A stretch of DNA of 64,000 nucleotides from Microgenomates group bacterium (GTDB lineage Bacteria > Patescibacteriota > Microgenomatia > PFEM01 > JBNASD01). Shown in pieces: positions 23,653-44,516 of this stretch (its first letter is position 1; each line of letters opens with the position of its first letter). The notes under the pieces are model-generated. The model worked only from the letters and a program-made list of their open reading frames with translations, did no database searches and was not told the origin of the DNA. The translations under genes and the position numbers were made by a program. The stretch is taken from positions 1,622 through 65,621 of the forward strand of contig JBNASD010000002.1 of NCBI GenBank assembly GCA_049720225.1, read 5' to 3'.

Positions 23653-24777
23653 ATGAAAGCAATTGTTCTTCAAGAAAATTTTTTAAAGGGGCTTTCTTTG
23701 GTCAGTCGGGCAGTTTCTTCTAAAAGCCAACTTCCTGTTTTAAGTAATATTTTAATTACCACCGAAAAAGGTCAACTAAAACTTTCTGCTACTAATTTAG
23801 AAACGGGAATAAATTATTGGTTAGGAGCAAAAATTGAAAAAGAAGGAGCAATTTGTGTTTCCGCGAAAAATTTAACGGAATTTGTTTCTTTTCTTCCTCC
23901 GGAAAAAATAGAATTGGAGGTAAAAGAAAATTCTTTAAGTTTAAAATCAGGAAATTATTCAGCTAGTTTTGTTGGTTTATCACCAAGCGAGTTTCCTTTA
24001 TTGCCAACAGTAGACTTAAAAGGGATTTTTTCTTTTGATTATCAAAAAATGGCAGAAGCAATTAATCAACTTTTTTTTGCTGCCTCAACCGACGAATCAA
24101 GGCCAGTACTTACGGGAATTTTGTTTCAAATTAAAGATGGTGACTTAATTCTGGTAGCAACCGATGGTTATCGTCTTTCATTTAAAAAAATTGAAAAATT
24201 AAAAGGGTTGGAAAAATTAAAAGAAATTAAAGAAAAAATAATTATTCCGGCAAAATCTTTAGTGGAGGTAATTAGAGTTTTAGAAGAAGAAAAAGAAGGA
24301 AAAATTAATTTAGATTTAATTTCTTCTTCTACTCAGGTAGTTTTTTCTTCCGCGCACGCTCAGGTAATTTCCCGGTTAATTGAAGGAGATTTTCCTGATT
24401 TTGAAAGAATTATTCCTTCTTCTTACAATACCAAAATAATTTTAGAAAAAGAAGATTTTTTAAGAGCAGTTCGGAGCGCGGCAATTTTTGCTCGAGAATC
24501 GGCTAATGTCGTTAAATTAAAAATTAAAAAAGGAGAATTAAAAATTAGTGCCAATGCTCCTCAGGTAGGAGAAAACTTGGTGAACTTAGAAGTCTCTCAA
24601 GAAGGAGAGGATAATAATATTGCTTTTAACGTTCGTTATCTTTTAGATTTCTTAAATTCTACTTCAGCAAAAAAGATTGTTTTTGAGACTTCAGGAGCTT
24701 TAAATCCCGGCGTTTTTAAACCAGAAGATGATTCTTCTTATCTTCATTTAATTATGCCGGTTAGGGTACAGGAGTAG
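23653..24777 (+). CDS. dnaN: DNA polymerase III beta sliding clamp
   Basis: 374 aa; MKAIVLQENFLKGLSLVSRAV... N-terminus typical of DnaN; three-domain length. Confidence 0.9.
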   Translation: MKAIVLQENFLKGLSLVSRAVSSKSQLPVLSNILITTEKGQLKLSATNLETGINYWLGAKIEKEGAICVSAKNLTEFVSFLPPEKIELEVKENSLSLKSGNYSASFVGLSPSEFPLLPTVDLKGIFSFDYQKMAEAINQLFFAASTDESRPVLTGILFQIKDGDLILVATDGYRLSFKKIEKLKGLEKLKEIKEKIIIPAKSLVEVIRVLEEEKEGKINLDLISSSTQVVFSSAHAQVISRLIEGDFPDFERIIPSSYNTKIILEKEDFLRAVRSAAIFARESANVVKLKIKKGELKISANAPQVGENLVNLEVSQEGEDNNIAFNVRYLLDFLNSTSAKKIVFETSGALNPGVFKPEDDSSYLHLIMPVRVQE

Positions 24778-25231
24778 GGGAGGAAACATAACGATAATCG
24801 ATTTTATGTGTTTGAGGATCTATCCCTAAAGAAGATATCCAGTCTAAAACTTCTTTTTCAATAAGGTTTTTGTCAATTTTATTTTTTATTTTAACTTCAA
24901 GATGTAAAGGAGCAATATAATCAACTAAAAAATTTTGAGTTTCATAAGGAAGATATTCTATTAAAGGAAACTTTATTTTTAGGGAATCTAAAATAGTTTG
25001 AGGGTTATCTCCTTTTCCCTCGGGAGAGAACGTGGGCGAAGGAGTCATTTTTTCTAAAATGGTAGGAGTGGGGGTAAAAGCGGAGAAGGGAGTGGGAGTT
25101 AAAGAGAGAGAGGGAAAAAAGGGAGAAGGAGTTGTTTTTTGATTAGCTATTATTTTCAAAAAAAATAGGATAGAAGCGATAAAAGAAAGACCTAAAATTA
25201 AAAAAAATAAGTTTTTTTTGTTTTTTTTCAT
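24761..25231 (-). CDS. small membrane-anchored protein with Pro/Thr/Ser-rich linker
   Basis: 156 aa; N-terminal TM, low-complexity PTPFSAFTPTPT region; first gene of the secretion-like cluster. Confidence 0.35.
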   Translation of the reverse strand: MKKNKKNLFFLILGLSFIASILFFLKIIANQKTTPSPFFPSLSLTPTPFSAFTPTPTILEKMTPSPTFSPEGKGDNPQTILDSLKIKFPLIEYLPYETQNFLVDYIAPLHLEVKIKNKIDKNLIEKEVLDWISSLGIDPQTHKIDYRYVSSPTPVP

Positions 25232-27963
25232 TGTGGTCTTAAAAATCCGTCAAAATAAACCGGGTTGATTTTAGTTATTTTAATTAATCCGTTTTGATCA
25301 CCAAAAGCCTGCGCCAACCAAATTAAATTATCTTCTTTATTAACAATGATTCCAATATGGCCATATTCTCCCCCCCTTATTACCGCTAAATCTCCAATTG
25401 TCGCTTGTTTGGGATCATTAATTATTATATAACCAGAAGGAAGATTATCAAGATAATCTTTAGCATGTCTTCCACCGCCAGGATCCCTTCCTAAGGCAGC
25501 CATTATCCCTCTTACAAAACCTACACACTGAAGACCCGGTCCGACATTAAAAACAGAATAATGAAATTGCTCAATAATGATTGTTTTAACTTCCTCAGAA
25601 AGATCACTAGCTCGAATACAATTTTCTGTGTCTTCCCATGTGGAAGAATTTACATAATCAATTCCGCATTGATTAAGAATCCAGATAACACTTTCCGCTA
25701 AATGCCCAGCAACACTTGGATCACGAGGAGAAACTGCCGTACCAATATAAGATGGGGTAGTTCCTTTTCCTTCTTCTAAAAAAGCTCCTCCAACGGTAAT
25801 AATGGTTAAAAGAGAAACGCCAGTAATTGCTCCGATACTTCCTGTTGTGGCAATTACCGGTAAGAAAGAGGGAATAGAAATCGAAGATAAAGAAGAAAGA
25901 AATCCGCTAATAGTATTTCCTATTCCCATTAAAAAAGATCCCAATTTTCCTGCCAGAAAACCTAAAAAAGGAGTTCCTTTGCTTAAAATTCCCAATAATA
26001 AAGAAAGAATACCCGCAGTAATTAAAGTTGGCCCTAAGAATGTTCCTAAAGGAAGAAAAAATCCCAATAAAATTAAAGAGGAACCAAAAATAATTCCAAT
26101 CTCAGGAGATTCTTTTATTTTTTTAAAGAACTTTTTAAAAAGAGACGGAAGAGAAGTTAAAATAAAAGTCACTATTCCCCCAAGTGGGGTAGAAAAAAAA
26201 CTAACAATTGTCGAAAGACCGACTTTAATTCCTAATTTTTTAACCCCCCAACTTCCTATTTTGGTTAAAATTTTTATTGCCCCCTGACCTAATAATTTTC
26301 CTATTTTAGTGTTTTTAAAAAACTTCCAAAAAGCCCTTTTTATTTGATAAAAACTTTTTATTTTTCCAAAAGTTAAAATTTTAATTAAAGGATTTTCGGG
26401 AATTTTAATTTTTTGGGTGACGAATTTAATTAAAAAAGACGGTTTTAAGAAAGAAGGAGAATAAAACCTACTAAAAATCTTAAGATAAAAAGGCGATTCT
26501 TGGAAAATAGCTTTTTGGATATTCTTCCAAAACAAAAGCCGCGAACTTTGGGGGTAAATATTTTCAAGGGAAACAACTATTTCTTCTACTATTTTGGGAG
26601 TAAATCCCTTAGCTAAATAAACTAACCCCAAATGTTGTTCTTGATATTCTTGGGGAGCTAAACTAATTAAACCCTGCAGTGGTTTTACTACTAAAGAAAG
26701 AAGAAAGCGTTGAGGGGTAGGTTTAAATTTTAAGAAAAAGAAAGAGACTTTTTCTAAACCTTCTTTGGTGCTCCATGAAGTTACTTTTTGGATGATTCTT
26801 TTTGCAGAAGAAATAAGTCCTTCTGGAGGAACGAAAGGTAAAAGCTCTTCTTCTAAAAAATTTCCTAATTTTTCTGGACCTATAAACTGAGAAAATTTTG
26901 AATGAAAATCAAAAATCCGATTAGTAATTTTTTGAACAAGGATTTTAATTTCTTCAGGAGGTTTTTTTAAGGATAGTTCTTTAATTTCAGAAAAAACAGC
27001 TTCTCTCCACCTTTCTAAGTCTTCCTCAATTAAAATTAAAGCAGGCTCTATTTGTTGAAGAATTTCTTGAGCTACTTCCGGAATTTTTGGGTGAGATAAA
27101 GAAATAGAATCTAAAATTTCTACTAATTTTTGGGAACTTTTTTGGGGAGAACGGGTGGAAATTTCTCCGGTTTTAATTTTTTCGATAATAGCAGAAACTA
27201 TTTTTTGATTAATTTGAGTAATTTCTTCTTGGGATAGGTCATATTTTTTTAAAGATAAATCAACGCCTTGAGATAGATAAGAAAAAAGAGAAGAGGAAAT
27301 TAAAGAGGAGACTGTTATTGGTCGAGAAACAACGGCAACCTTTGCGGCAAGTGGATAGGTAGCGGTAGTGATTTCATCAACAACTTCCTGAGGAGAAAAG
27401 GAAGGAAGGAGTGATTTTAAAACAGGAATAATTATTTCTTCTTTATACCTTTCTAGAGGAGGTTCTCTCTTAAAAAAAGAAGAACTTATTGTTGAGGTAA
27501 TTTTTTCTATACATTCTCTAGCAATTTTTAAAGAAAATATCCTGGCTGTTAACGGGTTAAGTCTTCTTTTTTCAAGAATTTCTTTAATTCTTTGTCGATA
27601 TTCTTGAAAAGAAGAATCAAATCCTAAGACATTTTCTTGGTTTTCTAGATATTCTTCATAAGCCTTTACAATTTCTTGAAGATTTTCTGGTAAATTTCTT
27701 GGAGAGGAAGTTTCTTGAATTAATATTTCATTAATTTTTAAATAAACCCTTTTTAAAAAATCAGGGTCTTTTGGATCAAGTTCTGGAAAAAAATTGGCTA
27801 AATAAAACAAAAGATCAGAAGGTTTTTCTATTTTTATTTTTAATTTTTCTAAAAAAATTTTTATTTCTGGTTGTTGAGAAACTTCCTCAAAAGGTTCTCC
27901 AAAAAGAAGAGTAAAAACTAAAAACTGAAGAATTTGATAAAACTTTTTTTGCTCTTCAGTCAT
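25228..27963 (-). CDS. large membrane protein with C-terminal CHAP (Cys/His amidohydrolase) peptidoglycan-hydrolase domain (PrgK/VirB1-like role)
   Basis: 911 aa; N-terminal region of about 550 aa with no signal peptide, then a block of TM helices (residues about 560-720), then CHAP motifs ...GLQCVGFVRG... and ...GEYGHIGIIV.... Confidence 0.65.
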   Translation of the reverse strand: MTEEQKKFYQILQFLVFTLLFGEPFEEVSQQPEIKIFLEKLKIKIEKPSDLLFYLANFFPELDPKDPDFLKRVYLKINEILIQETSSPRNLPENLQEIVKAYEEYLENQENVLGFDSSFQEYRQRIKEILEKRRLNPLTARIFSLKIARECIEKITSTISSSFFKREPPLERYKEEIIIPVLKSLLPSFSPQEVVDEITTATYPLAAKVAVVSRPITVSSLISSSLFSYLSQGVDLSLKKYDLSQEEITQINQKIVSAIIEKIKTGEISTRSPQKSSQKLVEILDSISLSHPKIPEVAQEILQQIEPALILIEEDLERWREAVFSEIKELSLKKPPEEIKILVQKITNRIFDFHSKFSQFIGPEKLGNFLEEELLPFVPPEGLISSAKRIIQKVTSWSTKEGLEKVSFFFLKFKPTPQRFLLSLVVKPLQGLISLAPQEYQEQHLGLVYLAKGFTPKIVEEIVVSLENIYPQSSRLLFWKNIQKAIFQESPFYLKIFSRFYSPSFLKPSFLIKFVTQKIKIPENPLIKILTFGKIKSFYQIKRAFWKFFKNTKIGKLLGQGAIKILTKIGSWGVKKLGIKVGLSTIVSFFSTPLGGIVTFILTSLPSLFKKFFKKIKESPEIGIIFGSSLILLGFFLPLGTFLGPTLITAGILSLLLGILSKGTPFLGFLAGKLGSFLMGIGNTISGFLSSLSSISIPSFLPVIATTGSIGAITGVSLLTIITVGGAFLEEGKGTTPSYIGTAVSPRDPSVAGHLAESVIWILNQCGIDYVNSSTWEDTENCIRASDLSEEVKTIIIEQFHYSVFNVGPGLQCVGFVRGIMAALGRDPGGGRHAKDYLDNLPSGYIIINDPKQATIGDLAVIRGGEYGHIGIIVNKEDNLIWLAQAFGDQNGLIKITKINPVYFDGFLRPQ

Positions 27964-28023: not shown

Positions 28024-29814
28024 TTAGCGGTTTAAGTTAGTAAAGACTTCTTCTGGTTTAGTAGTTATCAAACGGTGTTCCTCTGGGGAGGAAACCGCTT
28101 TGATGGCGACGTGATTAGCACCAGCAAAAAAGAGTCCCTCGCCGACATTAGCGGAAAGAAGAAAATTTTTTTCTCCTTCGGAAAGGTAGAAAACTTCTCC
28201 TACTTTTTCAATTGAAGCGGGGGATTGTTTCATTAAAATTTGAATTGAAGAATTGGTAACAATGGCCTTTCCTAAATCAGTAGCCAAAAAGTCTTCTACA
28301 TCTTGAGTGATAGTGGTTAAACCTAACCAGTATTTTCTCGCTCTTTTGGCAATGGAATATAAAAAGTTTGCCGAATCAGGATATTTCATTAAATGCCAGG
28401 CTTCGTCAACGACTAGAATTCTTTTTTTCATATCTTTTTTAATTTTTGTCCAAATATAATCAAGGATAATAAACATGGCAATTGGCCGAAGACTTTCTTC
28501 TAATTCTTTAATGGAAAAAACCGTAAAATAGTTTTTAATATCGACATTAGAGGGTTGGTCAAAGATTCCCATAAAGCTTCCTTTAATAAATTTTTCTAAA
28601 CGAACCGCCAATGAATTTGCTTCCGGTTCCTCCATTCCGATTAACACTTTATAAAGATCCTCCATTAAAGGCGGTTCTTTCTTTTGGGTTTCTGGTTCAG
28701 GGGTAATTCCTTTCATTTTGTAAGTGGCAACCAACGCTTTATCTAAAAGCGCTTCTTGAGTAGGGGTAAGATCGCCCATAATTATTTTAAACAAAGAATG
28801 CAAAGAAAGAATTTTTAAACCTAACTCATTTTCTCCCTCCTCATAAACTTGAGAAAGATCAAAGGGATTAATTTTTGCTTGAGAATTAAAACCAAAAGAA
28901 ATATATTCTCCACCGACTGCCTGGGCTAAAGTTTTATACTCATCCTCAGGATCAATAACAATAATTTCTGTGCCAAACATCAAAGAGCGGAGAATTTCTA
29001 GTTTTACTAAATAACTTTTTCCCGATCCTGACTTTCCAAAAACAACCGAATTGGCGTTTTCTAAGGTAAATCGATCGAAAACCACCAACGAACCGTTATG
29101 TTGGTTTATTCCGTATAAAATTCCTTCATTGGCAGTTAGTTCTGAAGAGGTAAAAGGAAAAGTAGTTGCCAAAGAAGTGGTATCCATATTGCGAGTAATC
29201 ATTAATTTGTCCAAACAAGTAGGAATAGTGGTTTTAAATCCATCTTCCATTTGTAAAGTGGCGTGTTTGGAAACAATGAGTAAAGATCCAAGCATTGCCA
29301 CTACTTGTTTGGAAATCTGGTTTAACTCTTCTAAAGAGTTGGCCGGAATAGTGATATAAAGACCAAATTGAAAAAATCTTTCTGCTCCTTTTACCAATTC
29401 TTCTTGAAGTTTTCGGGCGTCTTCTAATTTAGCTAAAGTAGCAGGATCAGGAAGTCTTCCTTTTTCGGTGGTGATTTGAATTTCTGCCTCCATTTCTGTA
29501 ATTTTTCTTCTTAATTCATCCAAAACCCCTTTTGCCTCAACCGGATAAATATACATCGCTATTTCTAAACTGTGATCAAAATTAATTAATGGCCCGAGCC
29601 AATTAGGAGAAACAAAACGAGGATAACCGGCAACAAAAAGAGTCCGAAAATATTTGTTACCAATTTTAATATAATCAAAATCAACTTCAATTGCCGAGGG
29701 GGCAATAATGTCTTTTATAGAAACCAAACCTTGATTAAATTTTTCAAGGTCTTGGTTTTCTTGAGAGTGATTTTCTTCAGCCTTCTTTTTAAAAGAGAAA
29801 AAATTAATTTTCAT
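28024..29814 (-). CDS. type IV secretion VirB4/TrsE/PrgJ-family ATPase
   Basis: 596 aa; Walker A VVFGKSGSGKSY, Walker B ILVVDEAWHLM; N-terminal IAPSAIEVDFDYIKIGNKYFRTLFVAGYP is typical of Gram-positive and CPR VirB4 homologues. Confidence 0.85.
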   Translation of the reverse strand: MKINFFSFKKKAEENHSQENQDLEKFNQGLVSIKDIIAPSAIEVDFDYIKIGNKYFRTLFVAGYPRFVSPNWLGPLINFDHSLEIAMYIYPVEAKGVLDELRRKITEMEAEIQITTEKGRLPDPATLAKLEDARKLQEELVKGAERFFQFGLYITIPANSLEELNQISKQVVAMLGSLLIVSKHATLQMEDGFKTTIPTCLDKLMITRNMDTTSLATTFPFTSSELTANEGILYGINQHNGSLVVFDRFTLENANSVVFGKSGSGKSYLVKLEILRSLMFGTEIIVIDPEDEYKTLAQAVGGEYISFGFNSQAKINPFDLSQVYEEGENELGLKILSLHSLFKIIMGDLTPTQEALLDKALVATYKMKGITPEPETQKKEPPLMEDLYKVLIGMEEPEANSLAVRLEKFIKGSFMGIFDQPSNVDIKNYFTVFSIKELEESLRPIAMFIILDYIWTKIKKDMKKRILVVDEAWHLMKYPDSANFLYSIAKRARKYWLGLTTITQDVEDFLATDLGKAIVTNSSIQILMKQSPASIEKVGEVFYLSEGEKNFLLSANVGEGLFFAGANHVAIKAVSSPEEHRLITTKPEEVFTNLNR

Positions 29815-30700
29815 TTTTATTTAAATCCGGATTTTTAACTAGATTATTAATTTTTTCTAAAACCGCATCAATTGGTTCTGGTTTTGTTGTTTTTTGAACT
29901 TGAGAATTTTGTTTTTCTTCCTGAGAAAAAATTACATTATTTTGGGGAGGAGAATTTGGGGTAACAGAAGGAGAGTTATTTTGAGATTCGGTTGGTTTTT
30001 CTAAAGAAAAATTACGCTGAGGAAGAGTGGCTTCAACCATTGGTTGAGTGTAATATTCGGTTTCTTCGACTTGTTGTCCTGGTGATTCAGGATTATAGAT
30101 TTCAAAAAAAAGCTTAATTAGCTCTTTGGTATCTAATTGTTTTCCTTTAATTCCCAATCGCCGCAAGAGACGAATAATGTGGTCTTTTTTAGGTAAAAGA
30201 TTAATTTTTGCTTTTTGAAGAATATAGTCTTTATCAAAGGGAAGCTTTTTGGAGGTAGGTTTTAAGCTTTGAGTGAGAGTTTTTATTCCGCTAATTTCTA
30301 AAGGACTCATCGGAATTACAATATAAAATTTTTTATCCAAGACATTATTTTTTTTAACTGTCTCTTCGACAAATTGAATATATTTTAAAATTTGATTTTT
30401 AATTAAAGGACGCGTTTCTTTTTCGCCGGTTTTTTTTAGGAGATTAATATAATCGCTAACATCTTTTGGTTGAGTACGGATAACAATTTGGATAGGAAAA
30501 GTTAAAGAATTAAGAAGGGCGGCATAGGCGTAAATCATTGCTTCTTGTTCTTTTTCTGATAAAAGATCGTAATTAATAGCGCTGACGCTTAAAATAACAC
30601 ACGCTCCGCCGTTTTTTAAAAGAACAATTCCCTCGCGGATATCTTCAATTTCTAGGTGGTCTTGGGTGCTGGCGCGAATGGCAATTTGGGCAGGATCCAT
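29804..30700 (-). CDS. VirB4 N-terminal-domain-like protein (possibly a split VirB4) with Q/N/S/P-rich tail
   Basis: 298 aa; HLEIEDIREGIVLLKNGGACVILSVSAINYDLLSEKEQEAMIYAYAALLNSL resembles the CagE/TrbE/VirB4 N-terminal domain pattern; 11-nt overlap with the ATPase gene; C-terminal low-complexity tail. Confidence 0.4.
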   Translation of the reverse strand: MDPAQIAIRASTQDHLEIEDIREGIVLLKNGGACVILSVSAINYDLLSEKEQEAMIYAYAALLNSLTFPIQIVIRTQPKDVSDYINLLKKTGEKETRPLIKNQILKYIQFVEETVKKNNVLDKKFYIVIPMSPLEISGIKTLTQSLKPTSKKLPFDKDYILQKAKINLLPKKDHIIRLLRRLGIKGKQLDTKELIKLFFEIYNPESPGQQVEETEYYTQPMVEATLPQRNFSLEKPTESQNNSPSVTPNSPPQNNVIFSQEEKQNSQVQKTTKPEPIDAVLEKINNLVKNPDLNKNEN

Positions 30701-30701
30701 T

Positions 30702-31796: not shown

Positions 31797-31902
31797 ATTT
31801 TATTATTTTAAACTGATAACTATTCTTATTCAAGCCAATCAAAACATATCATTTAGAGTATAATTATAGACTGTAACAAGTGTAATAATAATCATAGAAT
31901 TT

Positions 31903-37872: not shown

Positions 37873-38180
37873 TTGGGAATAGTAAAGACGGTAAGATCAA
37901 TTCCGGTAAATTCTTTAATGAAAAGCAAAATAAGCCAGCTTCCCAAAAGAATAACCATTCCCAATATGGCATAAGTGATCGTTTTTTGGGCAGATTCTTT
38001 AGTTTTTGGGTCGCCTCCAGAAGTAAGATATTTAAAACCACCAATTAAAAGCATAATAAAAAGAGCAATTCCGGCTAAACGAATAGCCAGGTTAAGGACA
38101 GATTGAAAAATACATTCTAAACACCAAATTTGCGCTATTTGATCGGGTGCGCACTTTTGCCAACACTCTTGAATTGTCAT
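37869..38180 (-). CDS. T4SS pilin-like protein (VirB2/TrbC-like two-helix protein), paralogue 1
   Basis: 103 aa; motif YLTSGGDPKTKESAQKTITYAILGMVILLGSWLI between two hydrophobic helices. Confidence 0.6.
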   Translation of the reverse strand: MTIQECWQKCAPDQIAQIWCLECIFQSVLNLAIRLAGIALFIMLLIGGFKYLTSGGDPKTKESAQKTITYAILGMVILLGSWLILLFIKEFTGIDLTVFTIPK

Positions 38181-38251
38181 ATTTTTAATTTAAATCAAAA
38201 CCCCCCTTCCGTCAAGGAGGAAGAGGGGAAAATAATTAATTTTTTAAAAAA

Positions 38252-38671
38252 TTAAAGGGTAGGAATAGTTAATGTTAATATACTGACGTTAAAGAATACT
38301 TCGATCAATCTAATAATTGCCCAAGCGGCAAAAACAATTACCAAACCAATTAAAGCGGCAGTAATTGTTCCTTGAGCTTTAGCAGTTGCTTCTTTATCTC
38401 CTCCTGAGGTAATCCATTTTATTCCTCCTAAAACTAAAAAAGCAAAAGCAACCAATGCCGCGATGATAAGAATTAGTCTTATTAAAGCAGAAACCAAATC
38501 AGGAATAGTAAATTTAGCTAAATTTTCAAATCCTGCTCCTGGTTCTAGTTTAATGGTTTGGTCAGCGGCTAAAACGATAGATGTTAAAAAATTCATCCTT
38601 TTCACCTCCCTTCTTAATTTTATATTATAAAAAAGTTTAGGAATTTTTTTCAAGTTTAATCTCCTGGACAA
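38252..38671 (-). CDS. T4SS pilin-like protein, paralogue 2
   Basis: 139 aa; WITSGGDKEATAKAQGTITAALIGLVIVFAAWAI. Confidence 0.6.
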   Translation of the reverse strand: MSRRLNLKKIPKLFYNIKLRREVKRMNFLTSIVLAADQTIKLEPGAGFENLAKFTIPDLVSALIRLILIIAALVAFAFLVLGGIKWITSGGDKEATAKAQGTITAALIGLVIVFAAWAIIRLIEVFFNVSILTLTIPTL

Positions 38672-39258
38672 CTGAGATTTCTTCCGCTTACTCTTCCTTT
38701 TGGATCAGGGGTTTTGCTTCCTCCCAAACAAACATATTGGTGGCTGTCGGCATCGCACCACGGATTTTCATAGGCCCATTTTCCCCCGCGATGGTCACAA
38801 ATACAACGGCAGGATTTATAACAATCTCCTTGGTTATAACCTGCAGGACAGCTATATTCTTGACAAATTTGACTTCGACATTGGTCTAAAGAAGGGAGAG
38901 AAACTTTTCCTCCCGAAGGAGGAGATTGCGAGGGTGGAGGAGTGGTTGGCCAAGGAGAAAAAAATCCTCTAACAAATCTTAAAATTGCCCACGCGGAAAA
39001 AGTAATAATTAGACCAATTAAAGCGGCGGTAATGGTACTTTTAGCTTTTGCGACTGCCTCTTTATCTCCGCCTGAGGTAATCCAGCGAATTCCTCCTATA
39101 AGAAGAAGCAAGATAAAAGCAATCAGGGCAATGGTTAAGGCAAGATTTATTAAATTAGAAACCACTAACTGAATATCTAAATTTATCCAACTTTTAATTG
39201 TTGGTGATGCTTCTAAATATTGCCGAATATCGCTAATCACTACTAAGGTGTTGGCCAT
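38656..39258 (-). CDS. T4SS pilin-like protein with C-terminal Pro-rich linker and Cys-rich domain, paralogue 3
   Basis: 200 aa; WITSGGDKEAVAKAKSTITAALIGLIITFSAWAI followed by TTPPPSQSPPSGG and about 12 Cys. Confidence 0.6.
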   Translation of the reverse strand: MANTLVVISDIRQYLEASPTIKSWINLDIQLVVSNLINLALTIALIAFILLLLIGGIRWITSGGDKEAVAKAKSTITAALIGLIITFSAWAILRFVRGFFSPWPTTPPPSQSPPSGGKVSLPSLDQCRSQICQEYSCPAGYNQGDCYKSCRCICDHRGGKWAYENPWCDADSHQYVCLGGSKTPDPKGRVSGRNLSCPGD

Positions 39259-39668
39259 TCGATTTTTAAAATTTGTAAGAAATCAAAACCCAAGGCTGGC
39301 GCTAAGAAATTTATGATTGCAAAAACCGACATAAAAATCAAAAAACCAATTAGAGCAGAAGTGATTGTTCCTTGGGCCTTGGCCACTTTTTCTTTATCTG
39401 GGCCAGCAGTTAACCAGCGAAAACTTCCCCAAATAAGCATAGCTAAAAGAACAACTCCCACCAATGAGAAAAGAATTTTTAAAGTATTAGCTATTAAAAG
39501 GGCAATGATTTCATGCCCCTCTCCTTTACCTAAATTTGGATTAATAACGGGATTATAAATTCCTTCTGCAGGGAGGAGAGGATTTCCTTCATCGATTCTT
39601 GCTAAAAAATATTTATTGTTAATTGTCGATTTCATTTTATTTTTGGACCTAGCAATGGTATTAACCAT
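39243..39668 (-). CDS. T4SS pilin-like protein, paralogue 4
   Basis: 141 aa; WLTAGPDKEKVAKAQGTITSALIGFLIFMSVFAI. Confidence 0.6.
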   Translation of the reverse strand: MVNTIARSKNKMKSTINNKYFLARIDEGNPLLPAEGIYNPVINPNLGKGEGHEIIALLIANTLKILFSLVGVVLLAMLIWGSFRWLTAGPDKEKVAKAQGTITSALIGFLIFMSVFAIINFLAPALGFDFLQILKIEWPTP

Positions 39669-40030
39669 TGAACCTCTAGAAATTCAAATCCTAATAAAGA
39701 ACTTAACAAAGACATTACGGCATAAGCGAACACAATAATTAATAAGCCAATTAATGCTGAGGTAATTTTTTTGGTAGCATTGGCAGTTTTTTGTTGGTCT
39801 CCTGCGGCAGTCATAAAACTGTAAGCACCAATAATAAATTGAAAAATAAACCAAATACCGGCAATAATAGTCATTACTCCAATAATTCGGGAAATAATGT
39901 CGGTAAAAACCCTAGCCGAAATGATAATGCTTTTTTCTTCGGCTAAAAAAGACCAAGGACCCAAACCTGGTGTATTTTTTCCACCGATTGGGCCTAAATC
40001 ATATTCTTTTGCTAAAAGATTAGAGACCAT
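39632..40030 (-). CDS. T4SS pilin-like protein, paralogue 5
   Basis: 132 aa; FMTAAGDQQKTANATKKITSALIGLLIIVFAYAV. Confidence 0.55.
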   Translation of the reverse strand: MVSNLLAKEYDLGPIGGKNTPGLGPWSFLAEEKSIIISARVFTDIISRIIGVMTIIAGIWFIFQFIIGAYSFMTAAGDQQKTANATKKITSALIGLLIIVFAYAVMSLLSSLLGFEFLEVQWLIPLLGPKIK

Positions 40031-40358
40031 AGATCTTTGGTTTTAAAATGGCGGTTGGATCGCCAAACAATAAATAACCAAAAATAGCCGCTAAAACAAA
40101 TGAGCCTAAAATAAAAAGCAATCCCAACATTGATTGCCAAATTTTTTGCCAGGCGGCCTCCATTTTTTTAGGATCATCGCCTGCCCCTAAAAACCCATAA
40201 CCGGCCAAAATTAAATTAATAAATGCCCAGATTCCCCCGATAACAATTAAAAGCCTAACGAGATTGGTAAAAAAGGGAATTAATCCTGACTGAAAGCCTC
40301 CGTACTTATCATCTGTAAACGGTGGAGGAGGATTAATATTACCAATAATATCTAGCAT
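40020..40358 (-). CDS. T4SS pilin-like protein, paralogue 6 (divergent)
   Basis: 112 aa; FLGAGDDPKKMEAAWQKIWQSMLGLLFILGSFVL. Confidence 0.5.
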   Translation of the reverse strand: MLDIIGNINPPPPFTDDKYGGFQSGLIPFFTNLVRLLIVIGGIWAFINLILAGYGFLGAGDDPKKMEAAWQKIWQSMLGLLFILGSFVLAAIFGYLLFGDPTAILKPKIYGL

Positions 40359-40359
40359 T

Positions 40360-40695
40360 TTAGCGATTAAAAATTTTAATTCCCGTAATCACTTCAATTA
40401 TTTGTATTATCCAATAACTTAAAAAAATAATCAATAACCCTGTTAGGGAAGCGGTAAGAGTTTTTTGCCAGTTTTTGGAAGCTTCTTGATCTCCTTTTCC
40501 GGCATTTATAATAAACATTAAACCAGCAACAAGAACAAGAATAAAAGTAATTACTCCTGCAATAATATAAACATTAGGAAGAATTGCCGAAATAAGACTT
40601 CCTAAACTTTGATATTCAGAAACATTTCCAATTCCTTTGTTGGGTTTTAAAAAAAACTGTTCACCAATATTTACCTGAGCAAGATAATTTTTCAT
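40360..40695 (-). CDS. T4SS pilin-like protein, paralogue 7 (divergent)
   Basis: 111 aa; FIINAGKGDQEASKNWQKTLTASLTGLLIIFLSYWI. Confidence 0.5.
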   Translation of the reverse strand: MKNYLAQVNIGEQFFLKPNKGIGNVSEYQSLGSLISAILPNVYIIAGVITFILVLVAGLMFIINAGKGDQEASKNWQKTLTASLTGLLIIFLSYWIIQIIEVITGIKIFNR

Positions 40696-40754: not shown

Positions 40755-41822
40755 ATGAAGTTTAGTCATTATCTGACTTCTTATATCAATTCCGCTAAAC
40801 CTCTTTTAGATGATTTTTTTGAGGAACAAAAAAATGAAGCCGAAAAAATTTCCCCCTTAGCCGGAGAGATGATTGATTATTATCGCAATTTTATGGAGGG
40901 AGGAAAAATGATTCGGGGGATGTTAACCAAATTGGGTTATGAAATTGCCGGAGGAAAAGAGGAAGAAAAAATTCTTTGGGTTTCTTTATATCCAGAAATC
41001 ATTCATAGTTTTTTGTTAATTCATGATGATATTATGGATGAGGACGAAATAAGAAGGGGAAAACCGACTGCCCATCTTTATTATGCTTTTTTAGGAAGAA
41101 AAAAATATCATTTAAAAGATGCTTCTCACTATGGTTTATCAATGGCGATTGATTTGGGTGATTTAGGAAACTATTTGGCTGGCGAAGCGTTGTTAAAAAG
41201 TAATTTTCCTCCAGAAAAAATATTGGCGTTGATAAAATTGGCCAATCGAATTTTTTTAGATACCGCTTTTGGCCAAGCGTTAGATATTACCGGCGAAGCA
41301 AAGAAAAATTGGAGCAAAAATTATATTTTAAAAATTTTTCTTTTTAAAACCGCCCGTTATTCGGTAGTTGGCCCTTTACAATTTGGAGCAGTTTTGGCGA
41401 ATGCTAATAAAAAATTCTTAAACGCCTTTAAAAATTATGGAGAAGCGGTGGGAATTGCTTTTCAAATTCAGGATGATATTTTGGGAATGTTTGGAGAAGA
41501 AGAAATTGTTGGTAAAGATACCGGAAAAAGGGATATAAAGGAAGGAAAATTAACTTTATTAATTGAAGAAGCTCAAAAAAGAGCTTCACCTGAACAAAAA
41601 TTGTTTCTAAAAAGGGTTTACGGAAAAAGGGATATTTCTTCTAAAGAAGTAAAGGAAGTAAAAGAAATTATCATTAATACCGGTGCTTTAGAATATTGCC
41701 AAAAATATGCTCAAAAGTTGGTAGAAAAAGGAAAAAAATTTATTCCCCAAATTACTCCCTTAAAAGATTTTCAGGAAGTTTTAGAAACTTTTGCTGATTT
41801 TGTAATTGAAAGAAAAAAATGA
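40755..41822 (+). CDS. polyprenyl diphosphate synthase (trans-isoprenyl, IspA/GGPPS family)
   Basis: 355 aa; first Asp-rich motif LIHDDIMDED and second motif FQIQDDILG. Confidence 0.85.
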   Translation: MKFSHYLTSYINSAKPLLDDFFEEQKNEAEKISPLAGEMIDYYRNFMEGGKMIRGMLTKLGYEIAGGKEEEKILWVSLYPEIIHSFLLIHDDIMDEDEIRRGKPTAHLYYAFLGRKKYHLKDASHYGLSMAIDLGDLGNYLAGEALLKSNFPPEKILALIKLANRIFLDTAFGQALDITGEAKKNWSKNYILKIFLFKTARYSVVGPLQFGAVLANANKKFLNAFKNYGEAVGIAFQIQDDILGMFGEEEIVGKDTGKRDIKEGKLTLLIEEAQKRASPEQKLFLKRVYGKRDISSKEVKEVKEIIINTGALEYCQKYAQKLVEKGKKFIPQITPLKDFQEVLETFADFVIERKK

Positions 41823-42322
41823 GAAAGAAAGAAATTTTTAGCCGTTATTTAATTAATCGTCTTTATCAATTTATTTATTGGCGGACAAAAAATAAAGATG
41901 ATGCCGAGGAAATTTTGCAAGAAACCTTAAAAAATGCTTGGCAATGTTTGTCGCTTTATTCTAAAAAATCATCCTTTTTTACTTGGCTTTGCGGAATTGC
42001 TAAACATGAGATTGCCGATTATTACCGCAAGAAAAAGATAAAAACGATTTTGTTTTCTTGGTTTCCTTGGTTGGAGAATTTAGTCAGCGAAGCTTTAGGA
42101 CCGGAGCAAGAATTTTTGAAAAAGGAATTTTTAAAAAGAGTTAATGAAACTTTTAATCAATTATCCGAAGGATATCGGGAGGTTTTACGACTAAAGTATA
42201 TAGAGGGACTAACCGTTAAGGAAATTGCCCAAAAATTAAATGAAACCGTTAAAGCCATTGAATCACGGCTTTTCCGCGCCCGAAAAGCTTTTACCAAAGC
42301 TTTTGCTGCTAACTATTCTTAA
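41819..42322 (+). CDS. ECF-type RNA polymerase sigma factor (sigma-70 family, group 4)
   Basis: 167 aa; region 2 (TLKNAWQ...) and region 4 HTH LRLKYIEGLTVKEIAQKLNETVKAIESRLFRARKAF; ATGA overlap with the upstream gene. Confidence 0.8.
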   Translation: MRKKEIFSRYLINRLYQFIYWRTKNKDDAEEILQETLKNAWQCLSLYSKKSSFFTWLCGIAKHEIADYYRKKKIKTILFSWFPWLENLVSEALGPEQEFLKKEFLKRVNETFNQLSEGYREVLRLKYIEGLTVKEIAQKLNETVKAIESRLFRARKAFTKAFAANYS

Positions 42323-42617
42323 AGAAGGTTATCTTCTTTTGGCAAATACTTACGGATTTTTGGTTCACCCCTATTTAACCTTAAAAAAAATTTCTCAGGA
42401 TCGGTCACAGGGATTGATTTTTTTAAGTTTATGGTTGGGAGGATGGTTGGCGGTAGGAATTTTTTTAGTTTTAGGGAAGTTAATTGTTTGGTTTTTTCCT
42501 GATTTTTGGTGGGTTAAAAAATTTTTTTGGTTAATTGCTTTGGGAGGAGGATTTTTTCTTTTGGTTTTTAGCTTGTATTTAGGTTACTGGTTAGTTATTT
42601 TTTGGAGGAAAAAATGA
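42240..42617 (+). CDS. small polytopic membrane protein, candidate anti-sigma factor
   Basis: Three predicted TM helices directly downstream of the ECF sigma. The track ORF overlaps the sigma gene in another frame; an in-frame TTG at 42339 would give a non-overlapping 93-aa protein. Confidence 0.35.
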   Translation: MKPLKPLNHGFSAPEKLLPKLLLLTILKEGYLLLANTYGFLVHPYLTLKKISQDRSQGLIFLSLWLGGWLAVGIFLVLGKLIVWFFPDFWWVKKFFWLIALGGGFFLLVFSLYLGYWLVIFWRKK

Positions 42618-42832
42618 GTATCCCGCAAAATTGGCGATTGGGACCAATTATATTGACATTAACCGGAGAACAGTGCGGAGGGTGTGGAGAAAAAATTTTC
42701 CCCCCCCGAGATTTATGTCCTAAATGTAGAGAAAGAGTTTTGCCAGAAGGAAATAACTTGGCAAAAGAGATTAGAGAAGGACGTACTCCCGCGCCGAAAA
42801 TTTTTTATGGAGGAAAAGAAAGAGAAATTTGA
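42602..42832 (+). CDS. small zinc-ribbon protein (CxxC...CxxC)
   Basis: 76 aa; CGGCGEKIFPPRDLCPKCRER. Confidence 0.35.
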   Translation: MEEKMSIPQNWRLGPIILTLTGEQCGGCGEKIFPPRDLCPKCRERVLPEGNNLAKEIREGRTPAPKIFYGGKEREI

Positions 42833-42885
42833 TTTTTCTTTTTGAAGTGCTAAAATTTACCAGTTTAATTAAACAACCAATTTAA

Positions 42886-43605
42886 ATGAGTAAACAAAGA
42901 AAAATTAAATTGGATCCAAACAATATCCCTAAACATATTGGGATTATTATGGATGGTAATCGCCGTTGGGCAGCAAAAAGAGGGTTAACGCCGACTCAAG
43001 GGCATGAAGCAGGAGTAAAAGCTTTGGTAAAAATCGTTGAGCATTGTTTAGATTTAGGGGTAAAAACTTTAACCGTTTATGCTTTGTCCACAGAAAATTG
43101 GCGAAAAAGAGCCAAAGAGGAGGTAAGAGGAATTTTTAATTTGCTAGTAAGAATAGTTCAAGAAAAAAAGAAGGAGTATCAAGAAAAAGGGATTAAAGTG
43201 TCGGTTTTGGGTGATTTTCAGGCTTTTCCCCGGAAGGTAGTGCGGGCAATAAAGGAAATTTTATCAATTGTTAAGAAAAACGAGAGATTAAAATTAAATA
43301 TCGCTTTAAATTATGGAGGAAGAAATGAAATTTTAAGGGCGGTAAAAAAAATTATTGCCGAAGGAATTCCCCCAGAAAAATTAACGGAAGAAAATTTTAG
43401 TAAATTTTTATATACCAATGGGGAACCAGATCCTGATTTAATTATTCGTACGGGAGGAGAAATTCGCCTTTCTAATTTTTTACTTTGGCAAATGAGTTAT
43501 TCTGAGCTCTATTTTACTGATACGTTGTGGCCTGATTTTACGCCGGAAAAATTAGATGAAGCAATTGCTGATTATCAAAAAAGACAAAGAAGGTTTGGGA
43601 AATAA
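42886..43605 (+). CDS. uppS: undecaprenyl diphosphate synthase (cis-isoprenyl transferase)
   Basis: 239 aa; HIGIIMDGNRRWA and other UPPS motifs. Confidence 0.9.
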   Translation: MSKQRKIKLDPNNIPKHIGIIMDGNRRWAAKRGLTPTQGHEAGVKALVKIVEHCLDLGVKTLTVYALSTENWRKRAKEEVRGIFNLLVRIVQEKKKEYQEKGIKVSVLGDFQAFPRKVVRAIKEILSIVKKNERLKLNIALNYGGRNEILRAVKKIIAEGIPPEKLTEENFSKFLYTNGEPDPDLIIRTGGEIRLSNFLLWQMSYSELYFTDTLWPDFTPEKLDEAIADYQKRQRRFGK

Positions 43606-43620: not shown

Positions 43621-43956
43621 TTAAAATATTGTGATTCCCAATATTACTTCCAAAATTTGAGTGAGCCAGTAGGCTAAAAAAATGATTAAGAAGCCAATTA
43701 AGGCAGAAGTAATTCTTCCTTGGGCTTTTTTGGTTGTTTCCGGATTTCCTCCTGAGGTTAAGAGTTCAAATCCTCCCCAAATTAACATTCCAAACAGAAT
43801 TAAACCGGCAATAATAAACAAATAAGGTAAAAGGGCAGAAATAATTTCTCCTAAGGTTAAATCAGTTTTGCTAAGATCAATTTTTGGCGTAACCGTTGGT
43901 TTTAAGGCGTCTTTTAGTGTTTTAAAATCAATTTGAGCTAAAAGTTTTTTTTCCAT
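43621..43956 (-). CDS. T4SS pilin-like protein, paralogue 8
   Basis: 111 aa; LLTSGGNPETTKKAQGRITSALIGFLIIFLAYWL. Confidence 0.6.
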   Translation of the reverse strand: MEKKLLAQIDFKTLKDALKPTVTPKIDLSKTDLTLGEIISALLPYLFIIAGLILFGMLIWGGFELLTSGGNPETTKKAQGRITSALIGFLIIFLAYWLTQILEVILGITIF

Positions 43957-44516
43957 TATGGTGTACCAAAACCGGGAATATTTAAAATTTTTACCCCAAT
44001 TAATTCTAACAAAAATATTGAAAAAAGAATAAATAAAAGACCACTTAAGGCGGAGGTGATCATTTCTTGACCGGCTTTAACATTTTCGGGATTACCAGCG
44101 GAGGTGAGAATTTTGATTGCCCCAAAAATGATTAACAAAAAACCAATTCCCCCCCCAATACCAATAGCAAATTTTAAAAACCAGACTACAAAACCATTCG
44201 GTTTAATAGGAATACATCCTAAGGCAGTTTGAATTCCTTCTTGATCTTCTCCGTTACAAGCTACCAGCTGCCTGTAGGTAGGTATACAACATTTTGTTGG
44301 TCCTCCTCTTGTAGGTGGGCAGTCTTTTTTTCCAACATCTATTGGTTTGTCCGAAGGACAATTGACTCCTGCAGGACGACATTCGCCTCCAATTTTTCTA
44401 CAATCATTACCCGCCTCAGCCAAAACATTTTTGGGAAATAAAAAGAAAGAAACAATTAAAAATAAATTAAAAAAGATTAAAAAAACTATCTTTTTCATTT
44501 TTAAAAAGTTTAACAT
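43956..44516 (-). CDS. T4SS pilin-like protein with N-terminal Cys-rich domain, paralogue 9
   Basis: 186 aa; signal peptide plus Cys-rich segment (CRKIGGECRPAGVNCPSDKP...CCIPTYRQLVACNG) followed by ILTSAGNPENVKAGQEMITSALSGLLFILFSIFL. Confidence 0.55.
   Translation of the reverse strand: MLNFLKMKKIVFLIFFNLFLIVSFFLFPKNVLAEAGNDCRKIGGECRPAGVNCPSDKPIDVGKKDCPPTRGGPTKCCIPTYRQLVACNGEDQEGIQTALGCIPIKPNGFVVWFLKFAIGIGGGIGFLLIIFGAIKILTSAGNPENVKAGQEMITSALSGLLFILFSIFLLELIGVKILNIPGFGTP

What the first reader, a model, noticed from the sequence alone, without database searches (positions are those of the whole stretch)
24761..44516. Type-IV-secretion-like locus without coupling protein, relaxase or integrase, immediately after dnaN
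A contiguous minus-strand block encodes a PT-rich small membrane protein, a 911-aa CHAP hydrolase with internal TM block, a VirB4/TrsE ATPase, a VirB4 N-domain-like protein, a PrgI/VirB3-like protein, a VirB6/TrbL-like protein, an 846-aa Cys-rich secreted protein and seven tandem VirB2-like pilin paralogues; two more pilins follow after an embedded sigma/isoprenoid operon. I could recognise no VirD4-type ATPase, no relaxase, no VirB11, and no tRNA-adjacent integrase. The cluster sits next to the replication origin in otherwise housekeeping context. That argues for a resident chromosomal apparatus (pilus, adhesion, DNA uptake or cell-cell contact, as proposed for CPR episymbionts) rather than a conjugative element. 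The auxiliary proteins (cytoplasmic 550-aa N-domain on the CHAP protein, the 624-aa plus-strand protein, the Cys-rich giant) have no characterised counterparts that I recognise.
Basis: partly seen in the sequence, partly recalled or inferred. Interest (0 to 1): 0.8.

Follow-up and report, generated by a model that had tools for sequence, protein, structure and literature searches.

The report
Origin-adjacent Patescibacteria-type type IV secretion locus
This is a real chromosomal type IV secretion and pilus gene cluster of an ultrasmall Microgenomates (CPR/Patescibacteria) bacterium, lying next to the replication origin and lacking conjugation genes, but this kind of system, its position and its missing relaxase were already described in 2023-2025, so it is a new example of a known thing.

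Summary
Window 24761-44516 encodes a VirB4 ATPase (NCBIfam CD1110 family, 419 bits against a cut-off of 325). It also encodes a TrsD-like protein that supplies the missing VirB4 N-domain, a PrgI/VirB3-like protein, a 9-TM VirB6 candidate, a CHAP hydrolase and nine VirB2-like pilins. The cluster abuts dnaN, dnaA and oriC. The 64-kb window holds no coupling protein, relaxase, VirB11, integrase or att-like repeat.

Wang et al. 2023 and Quinonero-Coronel et al. 2025 describe this Patescibacteria T4SS, including pilin arrays in Microgenomatia, the absent relaxase and the placement next to dnaA/dnaN. Gene order is shared with about 60 of 80 related Microgenomatia loci and with the essential Southlakia locus.

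The 624-aa plus-strand protein stays unexplained. It has no fold match, belongs to a family of at least 175 clusters, and always sits in the same slot. In some relatives that slot holds a VirD4-like ATPase.

Interest is low to moderate.

The parts
22068..24777 (+). Context: dnaA (22068-23435) and dnaN (23653-24777), with oriC-type DnaA boxes around dnaA. The dnaN 3' end overlaps the last T4SS-operon gene convergently.
   Evidence: Translations. GC-skew minimum at 21-23 kb. Perfect DnaA boxes at 22027 and 23550, with a cluster at 23351-23472. dnaA/dnaN lie next to virB4 in 60 of 80 related loci.
24761..25231 (-). 156-aa bitopic protein: TM 10-28, a Pro/Thr-rich linker, and an ~85-aa C-terminal domain. 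It is the last gene of the PrgI-VirB4 operon. Role unknown.
   Evidence: No Pfam or NCBIfam hit. One TM segment. Homologues occupy the same position in 5 related loci.
25228..27963 (-). 911-aa protein: ~550-aa cytoplasmic helical N-region, a hydrophobic block (585-722) and an extracellular C-terminal CHAP amidase/peptidase domain. It is the wall-hydrolase slot directly downstream of virB4.
   Evidence: CHAP 5.4e-6 for the whole protein and 7e-8 for the isolated domain. TM segments. Of 43 proteins in the same slot in relatives, 11 carry Peptidase_M23, 4 CHAP and 2 NAGPA. The analogue SEML1_0007 has a C-terminal DD-peptidase fold. Only one sequence homologue was found in the large database.
28024..29814 (-). 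VirB4 ATPase (596 aa) lacking the usual N-terminal domain.
   Evidence: NF045971, 419 bits against a 325-bit cut-off, aligned to profile positions 172-736 of 752. P-loop_TraG 7e-30. PDB 4ag5 at 9e-52. 62-80% identity to 80 Microgenomatia MAG loci.
29804..30700 (-). TrsD-like protein (298 aa), the detached VirB4 N-domain.
   Evidence: NF041427 TrsD 9.6e-12. Matches CD1110 VirB4 profile positions 7-120 and the Mbov_0397 VirB4 N-region. Present next to virB4 in 74 of 80 loci.
30702..31796 (-). PrgI/VirB3-like membrane protein (364 aa) with an extracellular C-terminal prealbumin-like (CarboxypepD_reg) domain. First gene of the ATPase operon.
   Evidence: PrgI 4.6e-5 (below the gathering score) and CarboxypepD_reg 6.6e-8. 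Found in 72 of 80 loci.
31903..33777 (+). 624-aa (probably 611-aa, from the ATG at 31942) soluble, highly charged, all-alpha protein. It is divergent from PrgI and convergent with the VirB6 candidate. It belongs to an unannotated family tied to this slot.
33778..35280 (-). 500-aa polytopic membrane protein (signal/anchor segment plus about 8 TM). VirB6 candidate by position and topology.
   Evidence: 9 hydrophobic segments. No Pfam TrbL hit in any of 20 family members. Weak NCBIfam hits to mollicute ICE membrane proteins: Mbov_0396 at 5.6e-4 and MMCAP2_0566 at 2.7e-6 in 2 members each. Same position in at least 26 loci.
35332..37872 (-). 846-aa secreted or anchored multidomain wall-hydrolase-like protein. 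It has a conserved N-terminal degenerate LytM-like module (~28-250), beta-sandwich middle domains with a Cys cluster, and a C-terminal all-alpha lysozyme-like domain (~715-846). Its start overlaps the preceding pilin gene by 4 nt.
37869..40695 (-). Seven tandem VirB2-like pilin genes (37869-38180, 38252-38671, 38656-39258, 39243-39668, 39632-40030, 40020-40358, 40360-40695), mostly overlapping or 1 nt apart. The third carries a C-terminal Cys-rich extension.
   Evidence: PF18895 at E 1e-10 to 1.4e-3, with five above the gathering score. Two TM helices each. Paralogues share 21-32% identity.
40755..43605 (+). Embedded plus-strand genes: polyprenyl synthase (40755-41822), ECF sigma factor (41819-42322), a 2-TM protein (42240-42617) and undecaprenyl-PP synthase (42886-43605).
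   Evidence: Translations. Sigma70_r2 and r4_2, Sigma70_ECF. The same insertion occurs in relatives L083 (with sigma) and L084.
43621..44516 (-). Two further pilin genes (43621-43956 and 43956-44516). The second has a signal peptide and an N-terminal Cys-rich extracellular extension.
   Evidence: PF18895 at 2.2e-12 and 4.6e-4. The pilin domain of the second is 77-81% identical in relatives, where the N-extension is longer.

Best explanation
This is the resident, vertically inherited Patescibacteria-clade type IV secretion system of a Microgenomatia bacterium. It derives from the monoderm (MPF_FATA) conjugation machinery and is placed beside oriC.

It is organised as two minus-strand operons:
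- (i) seven pilins, then the PrgK-like hydrolase (846 aa), then the VirB6 candidate;
- (ii) PrgI/VirB3-like, then TrsD-like, then VirB4, then the CHAP hydrolase, then a small bitopic protein.

Two more pilins lie beyond a conserved isoprenoid/ECF-sigma insertion. A cytoplasmic 624-aa protein is transcribed divergently between the two operons.

Inferred mechanism:
1. VirB4, whose N-domain is supplied in trans by the TrsD-like protein, docks on the PrgI/VirB3 and polytopic VirB6-like membrane platform.
2. It extracts VirB2-like pilins from the membrane and polymerises them into a filament or conduit.
3. The degenerate-LytM plus lysozyme-like protein and the membrane-anchored CHAP protein open or remodel peptidoglycan at the assembly or contact site.
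4. The structure bridges to a host cell and supports the host-dependent lifestyle. It does not transfer the bacterium's own DNA by conjugation.

Shown here: gene content, family assignments, folds, synteny and the absence of conjugation genes in the window. Inferred: pilus formation, contact with a host, and the nature and direction of any cargo.
For: - Family assignments.
- Split VirB4: complementary profile ranges.
- PrgK-like fold of the 846-aa protein: read with the PrgK domain architecture (degenerate LytM + SLT + CHAP) in PMC11323569.
- CHAP domain.
- Wall-hydrolase domains recur in the slot after virB4 in relatives.
- No second P-loop ATPase, relaxase or recombinase in 64 kb.
- No att-like repeats.
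- oriC context.
- Conserved order next to dnaN/dnaA in 60 of 80 Microgenomatia loci with 62-80% identical VirB4.
- Same layout as the Tn-seq-essential S. epibionticum locus SEML1_0001-0019.
- Phylum-wide description of exactly this system. Review.
Against: - No experiment exists for any Microgenomatia system. A pilus has not been seen.
- The VirB6 assignment fails Pfam TrbL and rests on topology, position and weak hits.
- PrgI scores below Pfam's curated cut-off.
- No VirB8-like component was found.
- Only 64 kb of a contig of at least 113 kb was visible, so a T4CP or relaxase elsewhere in the genome cannot be excluded. The 2025 survey finds VirD4 homologues in most genomes, far from virB4.
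- Some relatives have a VirD4-like ATPase, and one also a tyrosine recombinase, beside PrgI. DNA handling by the clade's system is therefore not excluded.
Confidence: 0.8

Rival explanations
1. An integrated conjugative element or a decayed remnant of one, whose relaxase, coupling protein and integrase lie outside the stated coordinates.
For: The VirB4 family is the one used by Gram-positive ICEs. Relatives L081/L082 have a VirD4-like ATPase and a tyrosine recombinase beside PrgI.
Against: The 64-kb window has no relaxase, T4CP or recombinase and no flanking direct repeats. Composition does not differ from the flanks. The same order next to dnaA/dnaN recurs across a whole class, with VirB4 tracking taxonomy (PMC12102498).
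Confidence: 0.03
2. A DNA-import machine, analogous to archaeal Ced or Helicobacter ComB. It would use the pilus and VirB4 to pull host DNA or nucleotides into a cell that cannot make them.
For: This was proposed in the 2025 survey. The cell presumably lacks nucleotide synthesis. VirB4 shows weak similarity to CedB and CedD (1e-15 and 5e-7, far below cut-offs). A ComFC-like gene lies 5 kb away.
Against: The locus has no DNA-binding or translocase partner. In S. epibionticum the T4SS is essential while comEC is not, so any link to the competence pathway is not required. The Ced similarity only reflects the shared VirB4 fold.
Confidence: 0.15
3. A protein-export system that delivers wall-degrading or other effectors to the host cell. 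The modular 846-aa family and/or the variable cytoplasmic proteins of the divergent slot would be cargo.
For: The conserved module of the 846-aa family is joined to changing enzyme domains: SLT_3, GH5 cellulase, beta-helix/dockerin and FGE-sulfatase. The divergent slot holds unrelated large acidic proteins even in close relatives. Wang 2023 favours protein export or another non-DNA role.
Against: The locus has no coupling protein to recruit cytoplasmic substrates. The 846-aa protein has its own N-terminal export signal, so it needs no T4SS. No translocation signal is known.
Confidence: 0.25
4. A pilus-only adhesion or contact organelle with no transport function.
For: Nine pilin paralogues, two of them with extra extracellular Cys-rich domains. 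No substrate-recruiting ATPase is present.
Against: A full inner-membrane platform and wall hydrolases are retained. Patescibacteria already use type IV pili for adhesion. Essentiality in S. epibionticum suggests more than attachment.
Confidence: 0.1

Closest known systems
Patescibacteria-clade T4SS (Quinonero-Coronel et al. 2025, PMC12102498), with the S. epibionticum SEML1_0006-0019 locus as exemplar (Wang et al. 2023, PMC10633639)
   Same: It shares the MPF_FATA-type VirB4, the adjacent TrsD-like and PrgI-like genes, and a polytopic VirB6-type protein. It shares a VirB2-like pilin array (the published range is 2-11 genes at about 25% identity). A large protein with a C-terminal wall-hydrolase domain follows virB4. 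There is no relaxase, and the locus lies next to dnaA/dnaN.
   Different: The Saccharibacteria VirB6-like proteins are about 1000 aa with cytoplasmic ARM-like domains and are present in two copies. Here there is one 500-aa membrane-only protein, plus a separate divergently transcribed cytoplasmic 624-aa protein. The hydrolase domains differ: CHAP and LytM-like/lysozyme-like here, against a DD-peptidase fold on SEML1_0007 and two lysozyme-like domains plus a cysteine-proteinase domain on SEML1_0006. An isoprenoid/ECF-sigma insertion splits the pilin array. No NTF2/VirB8-like protein was found.
pCF10 / pIP501 / CTn2-type Gram-positive conjugative T4SS (MPF_FATA)
   Same: The VirB4 passes the CD1110-family cut-off. 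A TrsD-like protein is present, as in pGO1. PrgI/VirB3 is present. The PrgK-type hydrolase domain set (degenerate LytM, lysozyme-like, CHAP) is present.
   Different: The locus has no relaxase, no T4CP, no surface adhesin of the PrgB type and no recognisable VirB8-like PrgL. It has VirB2-type pilins, which Gram-positive systems lack. The PrgK domains are split over two proteins. The locus is chromosomal and vertically inherited.
T4CP-less effector T4SSs (Bordetella Ptl, Brucella VirB)
   Same: They work without a coupling protein and are chromosomal and non-conjugative. Multiple VirB2 paralogues also occur in Bartonella, Anaplasma and Rickettsia systems.
   Different: Those are diderm MPF_T machines with VirB7/9/10 outer-membrane cores and VirB11.

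Membership tests
Patescibacteria-clade T4SS (MPF_FATA-derived) | VirB4 ATPase of the monoderm MPF_FATA type | tested here: met
   NF045971 VirB4-like CD1110 family at 419 bits, above the 325-bit cut-off. P-loop_TraG 7e-30. PDB 4ag5 9e-52.
Patescibacteria-clade T4SS (MPF_FATA-derived) | VirB4 falls inside the monophyletic Patescibacteria clade of the VirB4 tree | tested here: inconclusive
   No tree with reference sets was built. The 80 best genomic relatives (62-80% identity) are Microgenomatia-type MAGs with the same neighbourhood, although some records carry other taxonomic labels.
Patescibacteria-clade T4SS (MPF_FATA-derived) | TrsD-like protein (VirB4 N-domain homologue) encoded next to virB4 | tested here: met
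   NF041427 at 9.6e-12, below its 200-bit equivalog-style cut-off. It also matches CD1110 profile positions 7-120, complementary to the ATPase's 172-736. Adjacent in 74 of 80 loci.
Patescibacteria-clade T4SS (MPF_FATA-derived) | PrgI/VirB3-like membrane protein near virB4 | tested here: met
   PF12666 at E 4.6e-5 over profile positions 1-82 of 91, but 24.3 bits is under the 27-bit curated cut-off. Relatives carry the same weak PrgI hit. Adjacent in 72 of 80 loci.
Patescibacteria-clade T4SS (MPF_FATA-derived) | Array of VirB2-like pilins (PF18895) | tested here: met
   Nine genes. Six are above the gathering score and three below, and all align.
Patescibacteria-clade T4SS (MPF_FATA-derived) | No relaxase associated with the locus; chromosomal position near dnaA/dnaN | tested here: met
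   No relaxase or recombinase domain in any ORF of about 150 aa or more in the window. dnaN overlaps the last gene of the locus. DnaA boxes and the GC-skew minimum support the origin. CONJscan MOB profiles were not available.
Patescibacteria-clade T4SS (MPF_FATA-derived) | Required for host-dependent growth | not testable with these tools
   Known only for S. epibionticum, by Tn-seq.
Conjugative element (ICE or plasmid T4SS) | Relaxase (MOB) gene | tested here: not met
   None by Pfam or NCBIfam in the window. The 624-aa family has no conserved His motif and no fold match.
Conjugative element (ICE or plasmid T4SS) | VirD4/TcpA-type coupling ATPase | tested here: not met
   Only DnaA and VirB4 carry a Walker A motif among ORFs of 150 aa or more. 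tblastn with a relative's T4CP-like protein finds nothing in the window. One could exist elsewhere in the genome.
Conjugative element (ICE or plasmid T4SS) | Integrase and flanking att repeats, or a patchy distribution | tested here: not met
   No recombinase. No long direct repeats. The locus is conserved in place across the class.
PrgK / VirB1-class T4SS wall hydrolase | LytM (M23) fold domain, degenerate in PrgK | tested here: met
PrgK / VirB1-class T4SS wall hydrolase | Lysozyme-like (SLT/muramidase) domain | tested here: inconclusive
PrgK / VirB1-class T4SS wall hydrolase | CHAP domain on the same polypeptide | tested here: not met
   CHAP lies on the separate 911-aa protein.
VirB6 / TrbL / PrgH | Sequence membership (Pfam TrbL or equivalent) | tested here: not met
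   None of 20 family members hits TrbL. The profile finds nothing in the PDB. There are only weak hits to mollicute ICE membrane proteins.
VirB6 / TrbL / PrgH | Polytopic membrane protein (5 or more TM) encoded within the T4SS operon | tested here: met
   9 hydrophobic segments. The position between the hydrolase and the PrgI operon is conserved.

The most novel reading that the evidence does not exclude
The divergently transcribed slot between the pilin/VirB6 operon and the PrgI-TrsD-VirB4 operon may encode a previously unrecognised class of T4SS partner. In this genome it holds a 624-aa all-alpha cytoplasmic protein with no detectable fold relative. That protein belongs to a family of at least 175 clusters (at 50% identity) that keeps this exact slot down to 28% identity. 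In other Microgenomatia the slot holds a VirD4-like ATPase or unrelated large acidic soluble proteins. These proteins could be lineage-specific substrate receptors that replace the coupling protein, or the translocated cargo itself.
Probability: 0.15. Interest if true: 0.6.

Novelty: new member of a known kind. Interest (0 to 1): 0.3.

Why it matters
The Patescibacteria T4SS is the only T4SS known to be essential for its owner's growth, and what it moves is an open question. This locus adds a clean Microgenomatia example from the class in which the 2025 survey could hardly detect VirB3 or VirB6 near virB4. Its proteins serve as seeds that recover PrgI-like genes in 72 of 80 related loci and VirB6-candidate genes in at least 26 of 80.

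It also shows that the full PrgK-type hydrolase domain set of Gram-positive conjugation systems has been kept, split over two genes. Finally, it points to one unexplained, slot-conserved cytoplasmic family, and to a VirD4-like occupant of the same slot in relatives, as concrete candidates for substrate recruitment or cargo.

None of this changes the published picture. It refines it.

Tried and rejected
- Coupling protein. I looked for a hidden T4CP with a Walker-A scan of all ORFs and a tblastn of a relative's T4CP-like protein against the window. Nothing was found.
- ICE boundaries. A direct-repeat search found only pilin paralogy and low-complexity matches.
- Extending beyond the window. The source contig could not be reached through exact-protein look-ups; three look-ups were not on record.
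- VirB6. Pfam and a PDB profile search for the candidate family gave nothing.
- Opposite-strand proteins. I tested whether these proteins in the related loci are all remote homologues of the 624-aa protein. hhalign probabilities were 2% or less. Iterated HMM searches add only L070, L002 and L039, and one pairwise link adds L019. Common ancestry of all slot occupants is therefore not supported.
- CHAP protein. The word-indexed homologue search for the 911-aa protein returned only one relative, so no useful alignment or structure model of its N-region could be made.
- Signals. Promoter and terminator scans were at chance level.
Full report
**1. What is there**

The window comes from a Microgenomates-group MAG. 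Exact copies of three of its proteins are NCBI records from a 113-kb contig. dnaA (22068-23435) and dnaN (23653-24777) sit at the GC-skew minimum. The only two perfect DnaA boxes in 64 kb lie just upstream of dnaA and in the dnaA-dnaN spacer.

Directly after dnaN, overlapping its 3' end convergently, begins a minus-strand block. The 596-aa ATPase is a VirB4:
- Pfam P-loop_TraG 7e-30;
- NCBIfam NF045971 'VirB4-like, CD1110 family' at 419 bits against a curated cut-off of 325;
- the Thermoanaerobacter VirB4 structure 4ag5 at 9e-52.

It aligns only to positions 172-736 of the 752-position profile. The missing N-terminal part is encoded by the upstream 298-aa gene, which matches TrsD (9.6e-12) and positions 7-120 of the same VirB4 profile.

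The other assignments are as follows:
- The 364-aa protein has a PrgI domain (E 4.6e-5, slightly under Pfam's cut-off) and a C-terminal prealbumin-like domain.
- The 911-aa protein ends in a CHAP domain after a hydrophobic block.
- Nine genes match PF18895 T4SS_pilin and align as two-helix paralogues at 21-32% identity.
- The embedded plus-strand genes are a polyprenyl synthase, an ECF sigma factor, a small 2-TM protein and UPPS.

**2. What is not there**

Among all ORFs of 150 aa or more in the window, only DnaA and VirB4 have a Walker A motif. That rules out VirD4-, VirB11- or FtsK-type ATPases in these 64 kb. Pfam and NCBIfam scans of the other ORFs give only housekeeping functions or no assignment. 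The housekeeping genes include YidC, Jag/KhpB, GroEL, TGT, PGK, TIM, DnaG, RpoD, BacA and a P-type ATPase. There is no relaxase or recombinase. No att-like direct repeats bracket the locus. GC content is like that of the flanks.

**3. Comparative evidence**

A scan of one genome per species returned 80 loci with VirB4 at 62-80% identity. All have the Microgenomatia-type neighbourhood (Curtiss-, Beckwith-, Woese- and Gottesmanbacteria among others), although some records carry other taxonomic labels. tblastn of the window's proteins against these loci gave the following:
- TrsD-like in 74 loci and PrgI-like in 72;
- dnaA/dnaN within 10 kb in 60, and most of the rest are truncated contigs;
- two arrangements of the origin genes relative to virB4, 40 loci with dnaN and dnaA on the opposite strand to virB4 as in the window and 19 with them on the same strand.

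The wider order recurs: pilins, large secreted protein, polytopic protein, opposite-strand gene, PrgI, TrsD, VirB4, hydrolase, dnaN. This is the signature of a vertically inherited chromosomal system.

**4. Literature**

The system is known. Wang et al. 2023 (PMC10633639) found by Tn-seq that the S. epibionticum T4SS (SEML1_0006-0019) is essential for epibiotic growth. They reported that it resembles Gram-positive conjugative systems but has essential pilins and no recognisable coupling protein or relaxase. Their tables show the same layout after dnaA-dnaN-recF: exported proteins, lysozyme-type hydrolases, a 1113-aa protein with a C-terminal peptidase fold, VirB4, a TrsD-like protein, PrgI, VirB6-like proteins and six pilins.

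Quinonero-Coronel et al. 2025 (PMC12102498) surveyed 3,035 genomes. They found:
- a monophyletic Patescibacteria VirB4 clade nested in MPF_FATA;
- widespread TrsD, PrgI/VirB3 and VirB2 arrays of 2-11 genes, about 25% identical and especially common in Microgenomatia;
- relaxases in only 103 genomes;
- T4CP homologues mostly far from virB4;
- enrichment of dnaA, dnaN, rnpA and rpmH next to virB4 in Paceibacteria and Microgenomatia.

A 2025 review repeats this.

**5. The 'uncharacterised' proteins**

(a) The 846-aa protein. It has 54 database relatives that share a ~200-residue N-terminal module, while the rest of the protein varies. Some relatives carry SLT_3 lysozyme-like, GH5, beta-helix/dockerin or FGE-sulfatase domains.

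PrgK consists of a degenerate LytM, an SLT domain with muramidase activity, and CHAP (PMC11323569). The module here lacks conserved HxxxD and HxH motifs, so it is probably also degenerate. With CHAP on the 911-aa protein, the locus carries the PrgK domain set split over two genes. I infer from secondary structure, and did not show by residue ranges, that the LytM match is the N-module and the lysozyme match is the C-terminal helical domain.

(b) The 911-aa protein. It is fast-evolving, with only one relative found by the word-indexed search. In relatives, however, 17 of 43 proteins between virB4 and dnaN carry M23, CHAP or NAGPA domains. It is therefore the local version of a positionally conserved hydrolase with swappable domains, like SEML1_0007. 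Its ~550-aa cytoplasmic N-region remains unexplained.

(c) The 500-aa protein. It is polytopic and conserved in place. It does not meet Pfam TrbL. Members give only weak hits to mollicute ICE membrane proteins. This agrees with the survey's remark that VirB6 is hard to detect in Microgenomatia.

An exhaustive HMMER search finds 175 representative clusters, 93 of them at E<=1e-30. The conserved core usually follows a variable N-terminal extension. Members at 59%, 35% and 28% identity occupy the same slot, divergent from PrgI and convergent with the VirB6 candidate.

In at least 38 of 80 related loci the upstream region holds a large opposite-strand ORF, nearly always soluble and mostly acidic. 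Most of these are unrelated in sequence. A close relative, L083, has an unrelated 542-aa protein there.

In one group (L043, L045, L052, L054, L060, L079) and in L081/L082 the occupant beside PrgI is a VirD4-like ATPase. The two occupants scanned, L081 and L052, score above the cut-offs for TrwB_AAD_bind, TraG-D_C and T4SS-DNA_transf. In L081/L082 a tyrosine recombinase lies next to it. The papers I read do not mention this slot.

**6. Mechanism**

Shown: the parts list, the folds, the operon layout with overlapping or near-abutting genes, and conservation.

Inferred from established T4SS biology:
- VirB4 plus the TrsD-like protein, on a PrgI/VirB3 and polytopic platform, dislocates and polymerises the VirB2-like pilins.
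- The LytM-like/lysozyme-like protein and the CHAP protein remodel peptidoglycan.
- The filament or conduit contacts a host cell.

The cargo and its direction are unknown. I rank protein export or exchange above DNA import, adhesion only, and conjugation (see rivals).

**7. Verdict**

The locus is a new member of a known kind. The increments are the PrgK-like identity of the 846-aa protein, seeds for Microgenomatia PrgI and VirB6 candidates, and the unexplained slot family. Interest is 0.3.

Noticed in passing
window 31797-33777; loci L013, L019, L003, L004, L026, L070, L083-L085 and others: A divergently transcribed slot lies between the VirB6-candidate operon and PrgI. In at least 38 of 80 related loci it holds large soluble, mostly acidic proteins that are largely unrelated in sequence, even between close relatives. 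The 624-aa family (at least 175 clusters) is one occupant.
   Followed up: yes
L081/L082 5102-7432(+) and 7630-8502(-); L052 5585-7759(-) and its group: Some Microgenomatia carry a VirD4/TrwB-like ATPase in the slot beside PrgI. In L081/L082 a tyrosine recombinase lies next to it, and the two T4SS operons are rearranged around it. This window has no trace of either.
   Followed up: partly
window 40755-43605; L083 2422-7687; L084 9185-11084: The isoprenoid genes (polyprenyl synthase, UPPS) that split the pilin array are conserved in relatives. The ECF sigma factor with a small membrane protein, a possible anti-sigma, is shared with L083. This may link envelope lipid-carrier supply or regulation to the pilin genes.
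   Followed up: partly
window 43956-44516 and 38656-39258: Two pilins carry extra Cys-rich extracellular domains, one N-terminal after a signal peptide and one C-terminal. The pilin domain of the first is 77-81% identical in relatives, whose N-extensions are longer (321-340 aa). That is far more conserved than the other paralogues, so it may be a specialised (tip or adhesin) pilin.
   Followed up: partly
window 44607-46352: A 581-aa SpoIID-domain protein with an N-terminal coiled coil is divergent from the last pilin gene. The same neighbour occurs in L083. It may be another wall-remodelling factor linked to the system, or simply a cell-division gene.
   Followed up: no
window 49515-49864 and 49811-50554: A tmRNA gene is followed by a ComFC-like gene (double zinc ribbon plus phosphoribosyltransferase). 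The listed ORF start overlaps the tmRNA 3' end, so the true start is probably further downstream. A run of Ser and Arg tRNA genes follows at 50.5-54.3 kb.
   Followed up: no
window 13000-16000: This stretch has markedly lower GC (0.27 against about 0.33). It contains an 849-aa DUF4012 protein next to O-antigen-ligase-like and sugar-nucleotidyl-transferase genes. It may be a surface-polysaccharide island.
   Followed up: no
window 8050-8964 and 9217-9906: A PEGA+SH3 exported protein and a separate M23 peptidase lie 15 kb from the locus. PEGA proteins sit inside the Saccharibacteria T4SS locus (SEML1_0005).
   Followed up: no
Genome-contig loci L002, L003, L009, L011, L016, L018, L019 and others: Many public MAG records carrying this Microgenomatia-type locus are titled Gammaproteobacteria, Pseudomonadales or Nevskiaceae. 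These are probably mislabelled taxonomy in third-party assemblies.
   Followed up: no
window 47275-49071: A 598-aa protein with one central TM segment has no family assignment, only weak sub-threshold NCBIfam hits.
   Followed up: no
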